This document shows positions 5,867 through 30,753 of a stretch of 64,000 bases of DNA, piece by piece. The DNA lies in assembly GCA_963699165.1 (NCBI GenBank), contig OY969413.1:532562-596561 (forward strand). The letters run 5' to 3'. The notes below the pieces were generated by a model. The model worked only from the letters and a program-made list of their open reading frames with translations. It searched no databases and was not told the DNA's origin. Within the stretch, counting starts at the first letter, position 1. Every line of letters starts with the position of its first letter. The position numbers and the translations under genes are program-made. This stretch comes from Candidatus Kaiserbacteria bacterium. Lineage in GTDB: Bacteria; Patescibacteriota; Minisyncoccia; Phycocordibacterales; Phycocordibacteraceae.

Positions 5867-5992
5867 ACATTCTTTTTGCCCGGCGGATTACCGCCGGGCT
5901 GATGCTTTTTAACCCCGCCACGAACTGCTTCTGGACAATATGAAAAATGTGGATATACTCTCAAAAGTTCACTTTGAACCTTGGAGGTTTCC

Positions 5993-6298
5993 GTGACTCT
6001 TACTGTTAAATTACATCTTCCCGATATCCCGGTCTGGTGGTACGAAGTCCCATGGTCGCACCTGCTCGCCGAGGCAAAGCCGTTTCCCGGAGAGGACGAG
6101 GAATTTGCGGTGCGCGACCACGTCACAAATGTTCTCGGTGGATGCAAGCTCCGCATCCGAGAGGACTTCGTCATCGTCCGCACCGAAGAGGGGTTTCTTC
6201 TGAAGTTCTTCAGCCGGGACGGCGCCCGCTCTAGCGCAAACGCGCTTAATCTCCATTTGTCGTCGACCTTGCCGCAGGTCGAAAGTTCCGTCGCCTAG
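5993..6298 (+). CDS. hypothetical protein (about 100 aa)
   Basis: ORF with GTG start preceded by GGAGG. Possible promoter TGGACA-16-TATACT at 5932-5959. Confidence 0.3.
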   Translation: MTLTVKLHLPDIPVWWYEVPWSHLLAEAKPFPGEDEEFAVRDHVTNVLGGCKLRIREDFVIVRTEEGFLLKFFSRDGARSSANALNLHLSSTLPQVESSVA

Positions 6299-20828: not shown

Positions 20829-20904
20829 CTGACTATTTTGGAGCCACCCCGGAGAATTGAACTCCGGACCTTCTCGTTACGAGTGAGATGCTCTACCAAC
20901 TGAG
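20829..20904 (-). tRNA. tRNA-Thr (anticodon CGU), CCA encoded
   Basis: GCCACCC/GGGTGGC acceptor stem, D-loop AGTTGGTA, anticodon loop CTCGTAA, T-arm CGGAG-TTCAATT-CTCCG, 3' TCCA. Confidence 0.85.
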
Positions 20905-20938
20905 CTAGGGTGGCACAACTGCGAACATGAATAAATTA

Positions 20939-21502
20939 TCACGATTTCCGCATTCGGGCGAGGAGTTGACCCTCCTTGGCTCGGTTGCTTGCCGCTCGAA
21001 GAGGTCTTCCATTCCCTTTATTCGAACCTGCAAAAGTTGGGCTCAACGAATCGCAATTCGGGCACACAAGCCGCAGATTCTCTTCCGTATTGTTTTTCCA
21101 ATTCCCGTCGATATGGTCCGCCACGAGCGGCACTTTTCCGGTTTTCGGATTGACTTTTGACCATCCGCAAAAACAGCACTTGTTATCGAATTTCTGGCGC
21201 AAATATCTTTTGACGGAATCAGATACGAGTCCGATGGAATTCAAACCGGAAATTTTTCCCTCTTTCCACTCCTTGATGTAGGTCTGGTACTGAAATTCGT
21301 GCTGGCATGCGTTACTGCAATATGTATAAATTGCTCGCGCTGGTTCTTTTTTGCAAACGGGACATTTTGTCCTCGGCTTCTTCGGATTCGGCATATGCCT
21401 AATTATATCGCAAATGCAGACCAATTTGCATAAATACAATTGGTCGCATGTTGATAACGTGCGGCAACCCCAACTTCCTTCCATTTTATTCCAGTCACAC
21501 AA
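20939..21502 (-). CDS. HNH endonuclease
   Basis: CCFCGW...VADHIDGNWKNNTEENLRLVCPNCDS is an HNH zinc-finger nuclease motif. Possible start at MPNPKK (about 21394). Confidence 0.7.
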   Translation of the reverse strand: MCDWNKMEGSWGCRTLSTCDQLYLCKLVCICDIIRHMPNPKKPRTKCPVCKKEPARAIYTYCSNACQHEFQYQTYIKEWKEGKISGLNSIGLVSDSVKRYLRQKFDNKCCFCGWSKVNPKTGKVPLVADHIDGNWKNNTEENLRLVCPNCDSLSPTFAGSNKGNGRPLRAASNRAKEGQLLARMRKS

Positions 21503-21571
21503 TCGCGTTCTGGAAAAGTCTGACGACCAGTAATGGGAGCGCTCTGCGCAAGGTCATTCACAATCGACCAA

Positions 21572-21596
21572 ACCGGCGGCGCGTAGCGCCGCCGGT
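21572..21596. repeat. GC-hairpin repeat copy (accggcggcgc-gta-gcgccgccggt)
   Basis: Same hairpin family as 14364-14384. Confidence 0.5.
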
Positions 21597-22037
21597 GCAG
21601 GTATAAATGCTTTCAAAATACAAGTATTTGTTGTATGGTGCGAAACAGAAGAACTGCACCGCCTTGCACAGGAGAGCATCCATCGTGATACCTCGGCCCA
21701 TTACCGATCCAGGCAAACTTTCGGAGCGCGACCGGCGAACCCTCGAGGTGCTTGATAAAAACTTCAACGCCGAGCTTCTCAGTCCGTCGGTCGGGAAGAT
21801 TCCGGTACGGTTGCGTTGTTCGAGTCGGCTTTCAAAGGCTGCGTCCGAAGCCTTGCTGGTCAAAATCGTTAGGCACCTGAGGGAAGGTCTTTTCCCAAAG
21901 ATCGAAACCCTTGTGGTGCTGTATTACGTCTAGCATTCCACCGCACGTCCGCTTACGAACCGTATCAGGATTAATCCCCCTGCTACGGTTCTTCGTTTAT
22001 ATAAGGTCGGCTCGAAGAGTCTGTACGAATTGCTCGG

Positions 22038-22052
22038 CGTCCATTCCAAAGA
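22038..22052. other. note: a weaker copy of this hairpin actually sits at 22238-22252 (cggcgc-ttc-gcgccg); entry included for completeness
   Basis: See the repeat finding. Coordinates for the degenerate copy are approximate, at 22238-22252. Confidence 0.2.
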
Positions 22053-22054
22053 CG

Positions 22055-22073
22055 GGCGGCGCGAAGCGCCGCC
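22055..22073. repeat. GC-hairpin repeat copy (ggcggcgc-gaa-gcgccgcc)
   Basis: Same family. Confidence 0.5.
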
Positions 22074-22173
22074 GGTGCATTTGCCCTGCATTAAAATCGC
22101 CCCGCTTTCGCCCGTGTGGATATCATTGATTTTTCATCCGAATCCGCTATAGTGTCAGTATCACCACGGGAAA

Positions 22174-22216
22174 GACCCCTGTACGGATACGTCCGCACCG
22201 GGGGCTTTTTTATTTT
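22174..22216 (+). terminator. intrinsic terminator (plus strand)
   Basis: GC-rich hairpin (CCCC...CGGATACGTCCG...GGGG) followed by TTTTTTATTTT. Confidence 0.5.
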
Positions 22217-22278
22217 GGAATTAAAATGCAACACGGGCGGCGCTTCGCGCCGGCTGGGTTGGGTTTGTACAAATTCGC

Positions 22279-23175
22279 TCAGTCGCCAGTTTCTTCGACA
22301 CCTATTTTCCACACACCCTTTTCAAGAAACGCCTCGATCGTTTGCCGAGTTGCTTTGTTAATCAAATTTGGGTGCGAAAGTTTTTTGCTTTTAGCGTATG
22401 CAACAAGCGGAATGATTTTTTTGCCCTCCAGATACGCTAACCGCTTGTGATAGCTGTTGGTAAGCGCTTTTGCAACAATTTCTTCCATGACCGCGGTCTC
22501 GCCTTTCGCATCAAATTCCTTAAAGGCCGCGTAGTATTTTACGCGGTCAACGACTTTAATATTTATCGGAACAAACCCTTCTCGAATCAGCAAATAATTA
22601 TTGAGAACGCGGCCAATACGGCCGTTGCCGTCTATAAACGGGTGCGTATATTCAAAAGCCAAATGCAGTCTCGCAATGCGTTTGACGATGCTTTCATGGC
22701 TCGCAGAATTATACTCGGCAAGCATCTTTTGGAGCCGTCCCTGAATTTCTTGCGGGGCCGGTGCGATGTGGCTCCCGACGCGAACGTACTCGTTTTCCTT
22801 TCTAAATCGTCCGGCAATATCGTCGCGAATGTTCGCGATAAGCATTTTGTGAAGCGACAGAATAACATCGAGCGACAGCTCCTGCTCTTTCGCCTTATTG
22901 TCTATGTATGCCACAACCCGTGCGAGATTTTTTGCCTCAAAAATCTCCCGTTCGCTGATGAACCTGTCGAGGTCAATCTGGAGGAGAATTTTTTCAGTTT
23001 CCTCAAGCGTAAGGGTGCTGTTTTCAATGGCGTTTGAGTTGTATACCTGATCGGCGATTTCCGCTTCGCTGATAAGCGAAATAAGCGCCTCCTTGCCGGT
23101 AGAAGCTTTGTAGTATCTCTCGCGAAGCGCGTTGATTTTATTGAAGACCGCCGGTGTCTTTGCCATTAACTCCAA
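22279..23175 (-). CDS. Fic/DOC family protein (AMPylation-type)
   Basis: Canonical HPFIDGNGRIGR Fic motif. Confidence 0.9.
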   Translation of the reverse strand: MELMAKTPAVFNKINALRERYYKASTGKEALISLISEAEIADQVYNSNAIENSTLTLEETEKILLQIDLDRFISEREIFEAKNLARVVAYIDNKAKEQELSLDVILSLHKMLIANIRDDIAGRFRKENEYVRVGSHIAPAPQEIQGRLQKMLAEYNSASHESIVKRIARLHLAFEYTHPFIDGNGRIGRVLNNYLLIREGFVPINIKVVDRVKYYAAFKEFDAKGETAVMEEIVAKALTNSYHKRLAYLEGKKIIPLVAYAKSKKLSHPNLINKATRQTIEAFLEKGVWKIGVEETGD

Positions 23176-23208
23176 GTATAGTCGTTTTCACTGTTTTGTC
23201 AACATAAC

Positions 23209-23332
23209 CGTGAAAATATCGATATTTTTACGATTTTTCACGTTTATGACCGCATATCGAGCGAGAAAACCATGTTTTACATCGATTTTCTTTGTTAACT
23301 TCCACGCATGGATAAGGTTAACAATTGTTAAC
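23209..23332. promoter_or_regulatory. putative operator region between divergent fic and secreted-protein genes
   Basis: Inverted repeat CGTGAAAAT(N15)ATTTTTCACG at 23209-23242. Perfect 16-bp palindrome GTTAACAATTGTTAAC at 23317-23332, with another GTTAAC at 23294. Confidence 0.35.
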
Positions 23333-23431
23333 CTGTAAATTTTGCAGGATTACAACCTCCCACAGCAAGAGCAGGGGTCAGACGTGAAGCTCCTTTGGGT
23401 CCGTGCAACGGAAAATTGATATACTTAACTC

Positions 23432-24082
23432 ATGAAAAAGTTTGCCCTCGCTGCGGCTGTGGTAGTGCTCGCCGCCGCAGGCGCGCTGTATTTGTTTATT
23501 GCCAATTCTTCGAAGCCCCAACCCGACGGTATGTTTTCAGCAACCTATGTACCGAGCGGATGGACGACACAGGGTGACTCCGCCACATCTGCGATTGTCA
23601 CGGCGTTCATATCGCCCGATTACCTTCTGGAAAATCCAGCGGTGGTGGAAGATTGCTCCGGCACCGCTTCCGACGGCGGCTCAAGCGAGGGTTGCGTCAT
23701 GAATGCCAATGAACAAGTTTTGGGGAGAGGCGCATATTTAGCGGTGGCCTACGACCCGTGCATTGCCGGAGACGTGACAGAGGCCCAGTTTAGGAAAAGA
23801 GAGCTCGAGAACAGCAAAGACTTACAAGGTTTGGTGGACCAAAAGCCAATCGTCATCGCGGGACATAAAGCGGTTTTGTTCCACACGCGAAATCTCACAA
23901 ATACGACGCATCCTGCGATGGAAGACAACTACCACTTTACGGTTGTTTCATCGGTGAAAAAATCCTTTTGCCAAGACGTTAACTTTGGTTTTGTAGAGTC
24001 TACGACAACAGACTATGGCGCAGAATACGAGAAATTTATCGACGGCCTGCGGTTTACGCCTGATAAAAGTGCAGAGCAATAG
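23432..24082 (+). CDS. hypothetical secreted/membrane-anchored protein
   Basis: N-terminal signal/TM segment MKKFALAAAVVVLAAAGALYLFIA; no known domain. Confidence 0.5.
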   Translation: MKKFALAAAVVVLAAAGALYLFIANSSKPQPDGMFSATYVPSGWTTQGDSATSAIVTAFISPDYLLENPAVVEDCSGTASDGGSSEGCVMNANEQVLGRGAYLAVAYDPCIAGDVTEAQFRKRELENSKDLQGLVDQKPIVIAGHKAVLFHTRNLTNTTHPAMEDNYHFTVVSSVKKSFCQDVNFGFVESTTTDYGAEYEKFIDGLRFTPDKSAEQ

Positions 24083-24112
24083 AAGGATTTAAAGTGGAAT
24101 TGAGAATATACC

Positions 24113-24143
24113 AAAGCGGGCGGCGCTTCGCGCCGCCCGCTTT
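24113..24143. terminator. bidirectional intrinsic terminator, the strongest copy of the GC-hairpin family
   Basis: 12-bp perfect stem AAAGCGGGCGGCGC-TTC-GCGCCGCCCGCTTT. T-rich on the plus strand (TTTGGGCTTTGTATTTTCTT) and on the minus strand. Confidence 0.6.
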
Positions 24144-24214
24144 GGGCTTTGTATTTTCTTCCTGACCCAGTAGGTCATTCTGCTGAATGACCACGTAGGT
24201 CACATTACTAAGTG

Positions 24215-24475
24215 AGCCGAGAGTCGGGATTGAACCGACGACCCCGTCCTTCGCTTTCACCTCCCCTTTCGATATACGGGAGGGCTAGACTGTATCTTTG
24301 TCCCACCAAATGCGGGAGACCCTTGTCAGTCGTTCGGGCGCATTTGATTGCGCCACGGTCTTGTCCACGATGTGGATATTAACCGTTATTCGGGATTCAC
24401 TGTTCCGTCGCTGGAACAGTGGGCAGGGGTTTGCGACCCACCATGGACGTGCTCTACCAACTGAGCTATCTCGGC
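24215..24475 (-). tRNA. tRNA-Thr (anticodon GGU) interrupted by a group I intron in the anticodon loop
   Basis: Exon 1 (24440-24475) is GCCGAGA-UA-GCUC-AGUUGGUA-GAGC-A-CGUCC-AUGGU. Exon 2 (24215-24251) is AA-GGACG-GGGUC-GUCGG-UUCAAUC-CCGAC-UCUCGGC-U. Joined, they give a 73-nt cloverleaf with anticodon loop AUGGUAA. Confidence 0.75.
24252..24439 (-). ncRNA. group I intron (about 188 nt) inserted between tRNA positions 36 and 37
   Basis: U precedes the 5' splice site and the intron ends in G. R-like element GAACGACUGACAAGG (24321-24336) and S-like element AAGAUACAGUCUAGCC (24283-24298) can form P7 (GACUG/CAGUC). No ORF inside. Confidence 0.65.
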
Positions 24476-24583
24476 CTAACGCCCGAACATTCGGCTTCCG
24501 AATGTTTTAGGGGTTAACGCACTGTCGCAGTGTAGCCGAAATCAGCCATTCTTTCAATTTTTGAAATCGGTTATACTGCCCAC

Positions 24584-29109: not shown

Positions 29110-30753
29110 TTATGCGGCCTCTGCGCGCGGCACGGAGGATTTTTGCCAGTATGCGAGCCGCCACGCGAAACTCAGCGGCGGGAAAAATTCAGACAGTTTT
29201 TTCGATAAGCCGTGTTCGTCCATCCATAGAGCATAAGCAACGTAGTCGGGATCGGCGGAGAGCAGCTCTTCTTCGGCGAGCGAACGCATGCAATAGATGC
29301 CGCATATGCATGCAAAAAGAATCGCTAGCCGCACGTCGTCAAACAAATTGACGCCCGAAACAAACGGCAGCCATATGAGCAGCCACACCATGCATTTGGA
29401 CGCGTAAATCGGATGCTTGCAAATGCGGAACGGACCCGTGGTTATAATGCCGCGATTGCTTAGGTTCGACGAGCGCAAGCCGAATTGCGCTTCGCCCCAC
29501 AGATGCACAAACGAAAAGAGAAGAATTGCACCGCCGACCGCCGCAAGCGCGAACGGTACGTTTTGCAGATGCGTAACCCATGGCTGCATCCATACCGGAT
29601 TCGGCACAGTCGGATTGTAGTCAAACCAGCTCACGAAAAATGCCGCCTCAAATGGCTGATAGCACGCAAGCGTAACCATCCAGCCGAACCAAGAATGGCT
29701 GACCGCTTTCGTCTCGGTGCGGATAAGGCGCGAACCGAAAAGATATCCCGGCGTGACCGCGGCGATAATGAGCGCATACACCATGACGAGCAGGTAGTAT
29801 TCGCCGGCGGCAAACGAATTCTGCAACAGAGAAAGTTCATTGCCGCGGAACATGCCGATGCTCCACACCAATTCGCAGAAATTTATCGGCAAGAAAAATC
29901 CGCGTATGAGCCACATGATGATGTCGTCGCGCACCGCATGCCAATCGACTTCGCGCGTGCGCCCGAGCACCACGAGTCCGAGCTGGTATCCCCCGCGCAT
30001 CGACGGACCGTATATGCAATCGGCGGCGAGAATGAAAAAGGCACTGACTGCGGGAGCGGCAATGAGAATGAGCGGCAACATCTGAAAGAACGGGGCGTAG
30101 TATGCGTTCTGATATTCCGCAAGCGTGCCCCATGCGGCGAGTATGACGGCTAGTCCCGCAAGCGTGCCGAGCCACGTGATTGCCGAATGCGGAAGGCACT
30201 GTCGGATTGAATATTTGAATGTGTGTTTCGGCCCGCGGAGCCACTCGATTGCCATCATGACAACGATGATTGTCGCAACGATAAGGATGGAAAGGGCTTC
30301 GTTTGATATCGAAGTGCCGGAAAAAACGCAATACACGGCTATCGCCGCGAAACACAAAACGAACGGGTCCGTCCATTTCGAAATTGATTCGGGCAATCGC
30401 TGCGGCTGGGACATGTCGGTTAAATCGTACCACGCTTCACGTATATTGTTTCTCGGGACGGCTTTTGCTAGTGTTAGCGGTACAGTCGATGTTGGCGTTA
30501 CTTGCGCGCTTTCATTCGGCTCGCTCGAAGGACAAAGCAAGAGGTTGCAGTGAACACGTGATCGGATTGCTCGCCGGTGTAGTTCAAGAGTCAGAACGAG
30601 GGACTCATAAACCCTAGACGGTGGCGCGACTCCACCCACCGGCACACGACATTTTTCGAAGATTTTGGTAGGATGGCGAAATGAGGTTTCGGACGCTTGG
30701 GGAGTAAGCAAAGCTTGCTCCCTTGGCGTTCGGCGAAACAGTGCCTGCGGCAC
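29110..30753 (-). CDS. polytopic membrane protein with a C-terminal isoprenylcysteine-carboxyl/phospholipid methyltransferase (ICMT/PEMT) domain
   Basis: GIITTGPFRICKHPIYASKCMVWL matches the ICMT motif. Many TM helices. Probable start at MSQPQ (about 30414). Confidence 0.65.
   Translation of the reverse strand: MPQALFRRTPREQALLTPQASETSFRHPTKIFEKCRVPVGGVAPPSRVYESLVLTLELHRRAIRSRVHCNLLLCPSSEPNESAQVTPTSTVPLTLAKAVPRNNIREAWYDLTDMSQPQRLPESISKWTDPFVLCFAAIAVYCVFSGTSISNEALSILIVATIIVVMMAIEWLRGPKHTFKYSIRQCLPHSAITWLGTLAGLAVILAAWGTLAEYQNAYYAPFFQMLPLILIAAPAVSAFFILAADCIYGPSMRGGYQLGLVVLGRTREVDWHAVRDDIIMWLIRGFFLPINFCELVWSIGMFRGNELSLLQNSFAAGEYYLLVMVYALIIAAVTPGYLFGSRLIRTETKAVSHSWFGWMVTLACYQPFEAAFFVSWFDYNPTVPNPVWMQPWVTHLQNVPFALAAVGGAILLFSFVHLWGEAQFGLRSSNLSNRGIITTGPFRICKHPIYASKCMVWLLIWLPFVSGVNLFDDVRLAILFACICGIYCMRSLAEEELLSADPDYVAYALWMDEHGLSKKLSEFFPPLSFAWRLAYWQKSSVPRAEAA

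What the first reader, a model, noticed from the sequence alone, without database searches (positions are those of the whole stretch)
24215..24475. Group I intron splitting the anticodon loop of tRNA-Thr(GGU)
The two halves of a tRNA-Thr lie 188 nt apart on the minus strand. Joined, exon 1 (24440-24475) and exon 2 (24215-24251) give a 73-nt cloverleaf: acceptor GCCGAGA/UCUCGGC, D-arm GCUC-AGUUGGUA-GAGC, anticodon stem CGUCC/GGACG with loop AUGGUAA (anticodon GGU, U33, A37), T-arm GUCGG-UUCAAUC-CCGAC.

The insert has several group I intron hallmarks:
- it lies between positions 36 and 37, as in the Azoarcus tRNA-Ile intron;
- a U immediately precedes the 5' splice site;
- its last base is G (omega G);
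- it contains R-like (GAACGACUGACAAGG) and S-like (AAGAUACAGUCUAGCC; consensus AAGAUAUAGUC) elements able to pair as P7 (GACUG/CAGUC);
- it has no ORF.

At about 188 nt it would be among the smallest group I introns. Bacterial tRNA group I introns are best known in cyanobacteria and a few proteobacteria (tRNA-Leu, tRNA-fMet, tRNA-Ile, tRNA-Arg). One in tRNA-Thr of this kind of genome would be unusual. A second, uninterrupted tRNA-Thr(CGU) is present at 20829-20904.
Basis: partly seen in the sequence, partly recalled or inferred. Interest (0 to 1): 0.85.

Follow-up and report, generated by a model that had tools for sequence, protein, structure and literature searches.

The report
Known group I intron in tRNA-Thr
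A 188-base intron of the self-splicing (group I) type does interrupt the anticodon loop of a threonine tRNA gene here, but this exact arrangement is already published as a feature of Patescibacteria (CPR) genomes, so this copy is an ordinary member of a known family.

Summary
On the minus strand, 24475-24440 and 24251-24215 join into a 73-nt tRNA-Thr(GGU). They are separated by a 188-nt insert (24439-24252) that follows U36 and ends in G.

The group I interpretation holds, although Rfam RF00028 gives no hit even at E<=10. One capped genome scan returned about 96 species-level genomes, mostly Patescibacteria, with the same insert at the same site. In a 96-sequence alignment:
- the group I fold (P1-P9, P3/P7 pseudoknot, P9.0 before the terminal G) is 90.5% paired, against 32-45% in slid controls;
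- 38 of 54 pairs show compensatory changes;
- the U·G pair at the 5' splice site never varies.

A covariance model built from this family scores the window copy at 204 bits. It also cross-hits RF00028-positive group I introns in other tRNA genes.

The rarity claim fails. Nakagawa et al. [quoted passage not shown] They state that RF00028 misses them and that ARAGORN miscalls them as Arg(GCG) 34/35, which I reproduced. Self-splicing of the Thr class is inferred, not shown.

Side finding: the same RF00028-invisible lineage occurs inside protein genes on viral contigs.

The parts
24440..24475 (-). tRNA-Thr(GGU) exon 1, tRNA positions 1-36, ending in anticodon G34 G35 U36
   Evidence: Sequence. The joined exons give a 73-nt tRNA-Thr(GGU) by ARAGORN.
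24252..24439 (-). 188-nt group I intron of the divergent tRNA-Thr type
   Evidence: Model R1 scores it at 203.9 bits over its full length. The structure is supported by covariation. There is no RF00028 hit.
24215..24251 (-). tRNA-Thr(GGU) exon 2, positions 37-73, discriminator U, no encoded CCA
24422..24442 (-). P1. Exon G34 G35 U36 plus intron G1-G3 pair with the internal guide CCUGCC (intron 13-18). U36·G16 is the splice-site wobble pair.
   Evidence: GC, GC and UG are invariant in 94/94 distinct sequences. The three intron-side pairs covary, for example GGG/CCU to UAU/AUA. In viral relatives the guide changes with the 5' exon.
24398..24421 (-). P2 hairpin (9 bp) capped by the GNRA-type loop GCGA
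   Evidence: All 9 pairs show compensatory changes. The loop G and A are at least 90% conserved.
24392..24394 (-). P3 5' strand (CCC), intron positions 46-48
   Evidence: Pairs with 24320-24322. The helix is 99.3% paired and all 3 pairs have double changes.
24355..24386 (-). P4 (ACGGUU/GACCGU), the A-rich J4/5 and J5/4 joints, and the P5 hairpin
   Evidence: P4 is invariant apart from U·G to C-G at one pair. P5 covaries.
24337..24354 (-). P6 hairpin (GGCGCA/UGCGCC)
   Evidence: 5 of 6 pairs show compensatory changes.
24327..24336 (-). J6/7 (CGAAC) and the P7 5' strand (GACUG): the 'R' element, presumed to form the guanosine-binding helix
   Evidence: Invariant across the family. It pairs with 24288-24292 and is shared with RF00028-positive introns.
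24320..24322 (-). P3 3' strand (GGG), intron positions 118-120. It closes the P3/P7 pseudoknot.
24301..24317 (-). P8 hairpin
   Evidence: All 6 pairs show compensatory changes. The inner pairs are partly misaligned by MAFFT.
24288..24300 (-). J8/7 (CAAAGAUA) and the P7 3' strand (CAGUC): the 'S' element
   Evidence: AAGAUANAGUC is present in 83/98 family members. It aligns to AAGAUAUAGUC in a canonical intron.
24252..24285 (-). P9.0 (GC at 24285-24284 with GC at 24254-24253) enclosing the P9 hairpin, then the terminal G at 24252
   Evidence: Both P9.0 pairs covary in 25-28 sequences (GC/GC, GU/AC, AC/GU, AU/AU). P9 is 96% paired.
24529..24557 (-). Promoter-like site (TTGAAA, 17-nt spacer, TACACT) about 54 nt upstream of the tRNA
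   Evidence: Consensus scan only. One site was found against 0.8 expected by chance, so support is weak.
24111..24145 (.). 16-bp GC-rich bidirectional terminator-like hairpin about 70 nt downstream of the tRNA

Best explanation
The insert is a group I intron of the 'divergent' lineage that occupies position 36/37 of tRNA-Thr(GGU) in Patescibacteria.

Inferred mechanism, which is the standard group I pathway:
1. The pre-tRNA is transcribed whole.
2. The intron folds into P1-P9. P1 presents the 5' splice site as a U36·G16 wobble pair, formed by exon G34-G35-U36 with the guide G16-C17-C18.
3. A free guanosine bound in the invariant P7 helix (GACUG/CAGUC) attacks after U36.
4. The terminal G188, positioned by P9.0, then takes the guanosine site.
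5. The 3'-OH of U36 attacks the G188|A37 bond.
6. This joins the exons into a mature tRNA-Thr(GGU) and releases the intron. The anticodon stem (CGUCC/GGACG) helps hold the exons together.

Shown here: the split gene, the conserved and covarying group I architecture, and homology to canonical group I introns. Inferred: catalysis, and whether splicing needs no protein.
For: - Split tRNA and splice-site features: the exons join to a tRNA-Thr(GGU), with U at -1 and a terminal G.
- Homologues: about 96 genomes carry a 175-266 nt insert at exactly the same site, all ending in G and all giving anticodon GGU.
- Covariation: 90.5% of cells are paired against 32-45% in slid controls, and 38/54 pairs have compensatory changes. 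The pseudoknotted P3 and P9.0 both covary, and the U·G pair is invariant.
- Family model R1: 203.9 bits on the window. There is one hit per locus, always in tRNA-Thr.
- Link to canonical group I: R1 aligns full-length to an RF00028-positive intron (61.7 bits) in another tRNA gene at 23.6 bits, rough E about 2e-6, with shared core motifs.
- Precise excision in a relative: on viral contig L122, removing the intron at the predicted U|...G| boundaries restores a 1528-codon open frame (it runs back to an in-frame stop; no start codon assigned) through an SLT-domain motif. Left unspliced, the frame stops 3 codons after the junction.
- Literature: PMC13011429 Table 1 and text describe Thr(GGU) 36/37 introns in Patescibacteria. 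RF00028 misses them, tFind's gpI_bact_tRNA model finds them, and ARAGORN miscalls them as Arg(GCG) 34/35. [quoted passage not shown]
Against: - RF00028 gives no hit on the window at E<=10, nor at its gathering score on the 18 homologous loci. On the nine loci searched at E<=0.01, its only match over a Thr intron is one sub-threshold 26.9-bit hit.
- P3 is only 3 bp. P7 has no variation, so it has no covariation support.
- As drawn, P7 lacks the bulged nucleotide seen in many group I introns. This comparison rests on my own knowledge, not on a test.
- In the papers I could read, no splicing experiment or transcript evidence exists for the Thr class.
- Only 64 kb of the genome is visible, so an intact second tRNA-Thr(GGU) elsewhere cannot be excluded.
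Confidence: 0.9

Rival explanations
1. It is a group I-derived intron that no longer splices on its own. It would need a host protein (a chaperone or maturase-like factor) or special conditions.
For: The core is pared down, with a 3-bp P3 and members as short as 175 nt. RF00028 does not recognise it. I found no published splicing assay for the Thr class.
Against: All catalytic-core elements are conserved, and the tertiary-contact loops (GNRA-type L2 and L9) are kept. Related Patescibacteria tRNA introns self-splice in vitro (PMC13011429). Patescibacteria have reduced proteomes and no intron-encoded protein is present here.
Confidence: 0.08
2. The tRNA gene is a pseudogene, disrupted by a dead insertion that is never removed.
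For: Standard tRNA finders do not call the gene. No transcript data are available.
Against: The exons are intact and the insert is conserved with compensatory changes across about 96 species-level genomes. That requires selection on the RNA structure. PMC13011429 reports that genomes rarely hold both an intron-containing and an intron-less copy of the same anticodon.
Confidence: 0.01
3. The true junction is G34|C35, as ARAGORN places it, so the product is tRNA-Arg(GCG).
For: ARAGORN with introns allowed reports Arg(GCG) with a 188-nt intron that also ends in G.
Against: - That junction puts G, not U, at position -1 and breaks the invariant U·G pair of P1.
- Across the family the same shift yields inconsistent identities on one conserved tRNA body: Arg 47, His 16, Pro 6. 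The 36/37 junction always gives GGU.
- The body shares its D-arm, the 1-72 and 2-71 pairs and discriminator U with the neighbouring tRNA-Thr(CGU).
- The literature documents this same ARAGORN miscall.
Confidence: 0.01

Closest known systems
Patescibacteria tRNA-Thr(GGU) 36/37 'divergent group I introns' (name attributed to Castelle et al. 2018 by Nakagawa et al., mSystems 2026, PMC13011429; detected by tFind, Williams 2020 bioRxiv)
   Same: Same host gene, same insertion site and same host phylum. RF00028 fails in the same way, ARAGORN makes the same Arg(GCG) 34/35 miscall, and the size range matches.
   Different: Nothing of substance. This is one more copy. The published survey found 3 in 95 complete genomes. 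My capped scan found about 96 species-level genomes, so the family looks more widespread than that sample suggests.
Patescibacteria tRNA-Asn and tRNA-Asp group I introns at 35/36 (subgroup IA, self-splicing shown in vitro; PMC13011429)
   Same: Same phylum, also in the tRNA anticodon loop, also without an endonuclease gene. The core motifs are shared. The Thr-family model cross-hits RF00028-positive tRNA introns in the same loci. I did not determine which tRNA these interrupt: ARAGORN calls the best-matched one, in L095, Tyr(GUA) with the insert after the second base of its anticodon, and the paper's Table 1 lists one Asn(GUU) 35/36 intron that ARAGORN calls Tyr(GUA) 36/37. The paper places the Thr introns in the same clade, on long branches.
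   Different: Different tRNA and different position (36/37 against 35/36). RF00028 detects those introns but not this one. The Thr class has no published splicing assay that I could read.
Classical bacterial IC3 tRNA introns at 36/37 (Azoarcus tRNA-Ile, Agrobacterium tRNA-Arg; Reinhold-Hurek & Shub 1992)
   Same: Same insertion position after the third anticodon base, and a short three-base exon contribution to P1. The architecture is compact, with P2 and GNRA-type L2 and L9 loops and no ORF (comparison from my own knowledge).
   Different: The core sequence is of the AAGAUAYAGUC / AACGACU kind rather than IC3-like. The literature assigns no Patescibacteria tRNA intron to subgroup IC. Members as short as 175 nt are smaller than the 205-nt Azoarcus intron (Azoarcus size from my own knowledge).
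Group I introns in phage protein-coding genes
   Same: The Thr-family model hits 30 sites on 26 IMG/VR viral contigs at 43-128 bits; several are duplicate sequences, 24 distinct. They lie inside long open frames, and the guide sequence changes with the 5' exon. One sits in an SLT-domain motif and its removal restores the frame.
   Different: The host gene is a protein gene rather than a tRNA, and there can be up to three copies within 1.5 kb of one contig. No blastn match was found in deposited GenBank phage genomes.

Membership tests
Group I intron (self-splicing ribozyme class) | 5' splice site follows a U that forms a U·G wobble pair in P1 with an internal guide sequence | tested here: met
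   U36·G16 is invariant in 94/94 sequences. The flanking P1 pairs covary. In viral relatives the guide changes with the exon.
Group I intron (self-splicing ribozyme class) | The intron ends in G (omega G) | tested here: met
   G at 24252. All family introns found without requiring a G also end in G.
Group I intron (self-splicing ribozyme class) | Core helices in the order P3-P4-P5-P6-P7-P3'-P8-P7'-P9, with a P3/P7 pseudoknot | tested here: met
   90.5% paired against 32-45% in slid controls. P3 is 99.3% paired with double changes at all 3 pairs. P4 and P7 are invariant, so they are uninformative.
Group I intron (self-splicing ribozyme class) | P9.0 pairing just before omega G, which helps place the 3' splice site | tested here: met
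   Both pairs are about 96% paired, with 25-28 double changes.
Group I intron (self-splicing ribozyme class) | Significant match to the curated family model (Rfam RF00028) | tested here: not met
   No hit on the window at E<=10 and none at the gathering score on the 18 homologous loci. The positive control works on other tRNA introns. The literature reports the same miss for this lineage.
Group I intron (self-splicing ribozyme class) | Sequence and structure homology to accepted group I introns | tested here: met
   Family model R1 aligns full-length to the RF00028-positive intron at L095 7059-7261 (23.6 bits, rough E about 2e-6), sharing the P4, P7 and J8/7 core.
Group I intron (self-splicing ribozyme class) | Guanosine-dependent self-splicing | not testable with these tools
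   Needs an in vitro splicing assay or RNA data.
Patescibacteria tRNA-Thr(GGU) 36/37 divergent group I introns | Located in tRNA-Thr(GGU) between positions 36 and 37 | tested here: met
Patescibacteria tRNA-Thr(GGU) 36/37 divergent group I introns | The host is a member of Patescibacteria | tested here: met
   The gene order tRNA-Thr(GGU), tRNA-Thr(CGU), FtsE, FtsX, PyrG is shared with Paceibacterota MAG loci, with FtsE 88-89% identical. The nearest intron relatives come from Paceibacterota, one MAG labelled Saccharibacteria, one labelled only 'bacterium', and Kaiserbacteria MAGs. No rRNA or marker-gene phylogeny was run.
Patescibacteria tRNA-Thr(GGU) 36/37 divergent group I introns | Detected by tFind's gpI_bact_tRNA covariance model | not testable with these tools
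   That model is not available here. My own family model was used instead.
Subgroup IC3 bacterial tRNA introns | IC3-type core recognised by standard models | tested here: inconclusive
   The compact architecture is similar, but RF00028 gives no hit. The literature places Patescibacteria tRNA introns in IA, not IC. No subgroup-specific models were available.
Archaeal/eukaryal protein-spliced tRNA introns (bulge-helix-bulge type) | Canonical position 37/38 with a bulge-helix-bulge motif cut by a splicing endonuclease | tested here: not met
   The position is 36/37, not 37/38. The insert has a covarying group I fold. The BHB motif itself was not searched for.

The most novel reading that the evidence does not exclude
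The Thr-type intron may not be a tRNA-confined relic. It may belong to a larger, RF00028-invisible group I lineage that is active in phage protein genes.

Support for a wider lineage: 30 hits (24 distinct sites) on 26 viral contigs, up to three per gene region, with guide sequences retargeted to each exon. Patescibacteria tRNA-Thr(GGU) could have acquired or exchanged the intron with phages.

A free-standing HNH endonuclease gene sits immediately downstream in 12 of 77 loci, including this window's neighbourhood. It could mobilise or stabilise the intron, in the manner of 'collaborative homing' by an endonuclease-less intron and a neighbouring endonuclease.
Probability: 0.2. Interest if true: 0.5.

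Novelty: already known. Interest (0 to 1): 0.25.

Why it matters
For genome annotation, this is a real and probably sole tRNA-Thr(GGU) gene. Default tRNA finders miss it, and intron-aware ARAGORN mislabels it as tRNA-Arg(GCG). Unless this intron class is handled, a Patescibacteria genome would appear to lack a decoder for ACC/ACU codons.

For RNA biology the case adds little, because the class is published. It does confirm by covariation on about 96 genomes that the 'divergent' Thr introns keep a complete group I core. Members as short as 175 nt would make them attractive minimal ribozymes if self-splicing is shown.

Tried and rejected
- Rfam RF00028 found nothing on the window at the gathering score, nor at E<=10 on 501 nt and on 201 nt, nor at the gathering score on the 18 homologous loci. 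I rejected this as a refutation after the positive control and the literature.
- blastn of the 5-kb neighbourhood against GenBank phages gave only trivial hits, so the window is not a phage.
- blastn of the intron, and of a viral relative, against GenBank phages gave no match.
- A first literature search on 'tRNA-Thr' plus 'group I intron' found nothing relevant. Adding 'Patescibacteria' found the key paper.
- Castelle et al. 2018 is not held, so I could not check whether it contains a splicing experiment.
- The supplementary tables of PMC13011429 are truncated. I could not count Thr(GGU) introns across all phyla, nor map the published accessions to my loci.
- Exact 3' splice sites for the viral relatives could not be fixed from open-frame restoration alone, because several G positions and frames fit.
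- The ARAGORN junction giving Arg(GCG) was considered and rejected (see rival explanations).

Full report
**1. What is in the sequence**

Reading the minus strand:
- 24475-24440 is GCCGAGAUAGCUCAGUUGGUAGAGCACGUCCAUGGU.
- 24251-24215 is AAGGACGGGGUCGUCGGUUCAAUCCCGACUCUCGGCU.

Joined, ARAGORN calls them a 73-nt tRNA-Thr(GGU) with a regular cloverleaf. The 188 nt between them (24439-24252) begin GGGUCG and end AAAGCG.

Default ARAGORN and the Rfam tRNA model do not report the gene. They find only Gln, Thr(CGU) at 20839-20914, Met and Asp. With introns allowed, ARAGORN finds a split tRNA with a 188-nt intron, but it places the junction two bases upstream and calls it Arg(GCG).

Both junctions leave an intron that ends in G. 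Only the 36/37 junction has U at position -1.

**2. The obvious test fails**

Rfam RF00028 (Intron_gpI) gives no hit:
- at the gathering score on the whole window;
- at E<=10 on 501 nt;
- at E<=10 on 201 nt.

**3. Relatives**

One scan of 185,579 species-representative genomes looked for a tRNA-Thr(GGU) 5' half followed by a non-A at position 37.

- In about 96 of these loci the matching 3' half lies 175-266 nt downstream.
- Every insert ends in G, and every joined product has anticodon GGU.
- The record titles are overwhelmingly Patescibacteria/CPR: Saccharibacteria, Paceibacterota, Kaiser-, Wolfe-, Nomura-, Moranbacteria and others.
- A few truncated cases are simply cut by locus ends.

The window itself is Patescibacteria-like. 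Its gene order (tRNA-Thr(GGU), tRNA-Thr(CGU), FtsE, FtsX, PyrG) and its proteins match Paceibacterota MAG loci, with FtsE 88-89% identical. Its pre-tRNA is 83-84% identical to theirs. An identical MacB-like neighbour protein is encoded in NCBI assembly GCA_049279115.1.

**4. Structure**

A 96-sequence alignment has an almost invariant core:
- CCCGAAUAACGGUUAA
- AAGACCGUGGC
- CGAACGACUGACAAGGG
- AAGAUACAGUCUAG
- GAGGUGUAAGCG

Between these lie variable hairpins.

I drew the group I secondary structure on the window copy and counted pairs across the alignment. The elements, in intron numbering, are:

| Element | Positions / sequence |
|---|---|
| P1 | exon GGU + G1-G3 with C13-C18 |
| P2 | 19-42, GNRA-type loop |
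| P3 | CCC 46-48 with GGG 118-120 |
| P4 | ACGGUU / GACCGU |
| P5, P6 | variable hairpins |
| P7 | GACUG 109-113 with CAGUC 148-152 |
| P8 | variable hairpin |
| P9.0 | GC 155-156 with GC 186-187 |
| P9 | hairpin |
| omega G | G188 |

Results of the pair count:
- 90.5% of cells are standard pairs, against 32-45% when partners are slid by 1-3 columns.
- 38 of 54 pairs show changes on both sides.
- None of 500 column shuffles reaches the observed values.
- The pseudoknot-forming P3 is 99.3% paired, with compensatory changes at all three pairs.
- P9.0 covaries in 25-28 sequences (GC/GC, GU/AC, AC/GU, AU/AU).
- The splice-site U·G and the two exon G-C pairs never vary.
- P4 and P7 are invariant, so they say nothing either way.

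The helix order is the defining group I topology. L2 and, in the shortest members, L9 are GNRA tetraloops. This is the usual way compact bacterial group I introns brace their core (my own knowledge).

**5. Link to accepted group I introns**

RF00028 does work on this kind of genome. In nine of the fetched CPR loci it detects other tRNA introns, at 34-62 bits (five at or above its 50-bit gathering score). Over a Thr intron it gives only one sub-threshold 26.9-bit match.

I built a covariance model, R1, from the Thr alignment.
- It scores the window copy at 203.9 bits, the only hit in the 64 kb.
- It finds exactly one copy per homologous locus, always in tRNA-Thr.
- It aligns full-length to the RF00028-positive intron at L095 7059-7261, at 23.6 bits (rough E about 2e-6).
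- That alignment shares AUAACGGU-AAA, UAA-ACCGUGG, GACU and UAAAGAUAUAGUC.

So the Thr introns are divergent relatives of canonical group I introns, not a look-alike.

**6. Literature**

Nakagawa et al., mSystems 2026 (PMC13011429), describe this arrangement.
- Three of 95 complete Patescibacteria genomes have tRNA-Thr(GGU) introns at 36/37.
- RF00028 does not detect them. tFind's gpI_bact_tRNA model (Williams 2020) does.
- ARAGORN calls two of them Arg(GCG) 34/35.
- The authors call them 'divergent group I introns', citing Castelle et al. 2018, and place them on long branches within the IA clade of Patescibacteria tRNA introns.

The class is therefore already known. What remains inferred is catalysis by the Thr class.

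**7. Mechanism**

The best-supported reading is ordinary group I self-splicing.
1. Guanosine bound in P7 attacks after U36, which is presented by the U·G wobble in P1.
2. G188, placed by P9.0, then enters the guanosine site.
3. U36 attacks the G188|A37 bond, joining the exons.

Independent support that this lineage is excised exactly at U|...G| comes from viral contig L122. An R1 hit of 84 bits there (RF00028 gives only 13.9 bits) interrupts a long gene. Removing 5926-6119 restores a 1528-codon open frame (no start codon assigned) through the SLT-domain motif GLLQV|IDP. Left in place, the frame stops after 3 codons.

**8. Rivals**

- A dead insertion is excluded by selection on the RNA structure across about 96 genomes.
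- The Arg(GCG) junction breaks the invariant U·G pair. Applied across the family it gives inconsistent identities (Arg 47, His 16, Pro 6), whereas 36/37 always gives Thr.
- Protein-assisted splicing cannot be excluded without an experiment.

**9. Wider lineage (side finding)**

Core-motif scans of IMG/VR returned 26 viral contigs.
- They carry 30 R1 hits at 43-128 bits, up to three within 1.5 kb (L140). Several contigs are duplicates; 24 sites are distinct.
- RF00028 misses all those in the eight loci tested, yet finds a canonical intron 500 nt from one of them.
- Their guide sequences change with the 5' exon: GGU with GCC, GCU with GGC, GAU with GUC.
- About half of the 24 distinct sites have at least 100 open codons on both sides; some have as few as 18-40 on one side.

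**10. Verdict**

The claim of rarity is wrong. This is one more copy of a published family, so interest is low. It has modest added value from the covariation analysis and from the phage relatives.

Noticed in passing
window 20939-21502 (-), likely start near 21394: A roughly 150-aa HNH endonuclease (CxxC...DH...N...N...CxxC; weak Pfam HNH_3 hit) lies just upstream of tRNA-Thr(CGU). Homologues at 58-69% identity fill the spacer between the intron-containing tRNA-Thr(GGU) and tRNA-Thr(CGU) in 12 of 77 loci. Elsewhere that spacer is 2-30 nt or holds unrelated genes. This patchy pattern suits a free-standing homing endonuclease next to an endonuclease-less intron.
   Followed up: partly
window about 21500-24210: A roughly 2.7-kb stretch of lower G+C (0.48 against about 0.54) separates tRNA-Thr(GGU) from the HNH gene. 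It carries a Fic/DOC-family gene (22279-23175, -) and a 216-aa ORF with no family match (23432-24082, +). In close relatives such as L061 the two tRNA-Thr genes are 2 nt apart, so this looks like an inserted island.
   Followed up: partly
window 24110-24208 (-): There is a sub-threshold PrrB/RsmZ-like Rfam match (22.5 bits against a gathering score of 44) directly downstream of the tRNA. It covers a hairpin with a repeated GACCUAC motif and the 16-bp bidirectional terminator at 24111-24145.
   Followed up: no
window 30573-30645 (+): tRNA-Met(CAU) has an unusual T-arm, GGUGG-CGCGACU-CCACC, without the usual UUC in the T-loop. It still scores 57.5 bits on the tRNA model.
   Followed up: no
L122 5926-6119; L140 6274-7754; L123-L147 (IMG/VR viral contigs): The same RF00028-invisible intron lineage occurs in viral contigs inside long open frames. 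One sits in the GLLQV|IDP motif of an SLT domain at the end of a 1528-codon open frame, and its removal restores the frame. L140 and L145 have three copies within 1.5 kb. L128 has a canonical RF00028 intron (78.5 bits) 500 nt from a divergent one. There is no blastn match in GenBank phages.
   Followed up: partly
L043 5228-5420 (Niastella populi CCTCC AB 208238, 300-kb contig); L056, L070, L108, L073: The Thr-type intron also sits in tRNA-Thr(GGU) of a cultured Bacteroidota isolate (R1 184 bits). It also appears in MAGs labelled Gammaproteobacteria or Bdellovibrionales, some of which may be mis-binned CPR contigs.
   Followed up: no
L095 7051-7263, L078 6208-6406, L037 1907-2126, L108 1937-2207 and 5483-5753, L106 1738-1996, L052 2750-2950, L089 6400-6633: Other tRNA genes in the same CPR loci carry canonical group I introns that RF00028 matches at 34-62 bits (five at or above its 50-bit gathering score). 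ARAGORN labels them Tyr, Met, Leu or Asp with doubtful junctions.
   Followed up: partly
all family loci (L002-L121): ARAGORN with introns allowed assigns the correct identity to only 25 of the Thr(GGU) intron genes. It Arg(GCG), 16 His(GUG) and 6 Pro(GGG), because it shifts the junction by 1-2 nt.
   Followed up: yes
L004 and L017 (Solirubrobacteraceae), L050 1576-2874 (Solirubrobacterales): In these Actinomycetota MAGs a tRNA-Thr(GGU) 5' half is followed at the same 36/37 point by sequence that R1 does not match. My half-finder put a candidate 3' half 1287 nt downstream in L050 and none within 2.5 kb in L004/L017. This could be a different intron or an integrated element.
   Followed up: no
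L007 5194-5510: Two intron-containing tRNA-Thr(GGU) genes lie in tandem, about 260 nt apart start to start. Their acceptor stems differ but their intron starts are identical. The second is cut by the contig end.
   Followed up: no
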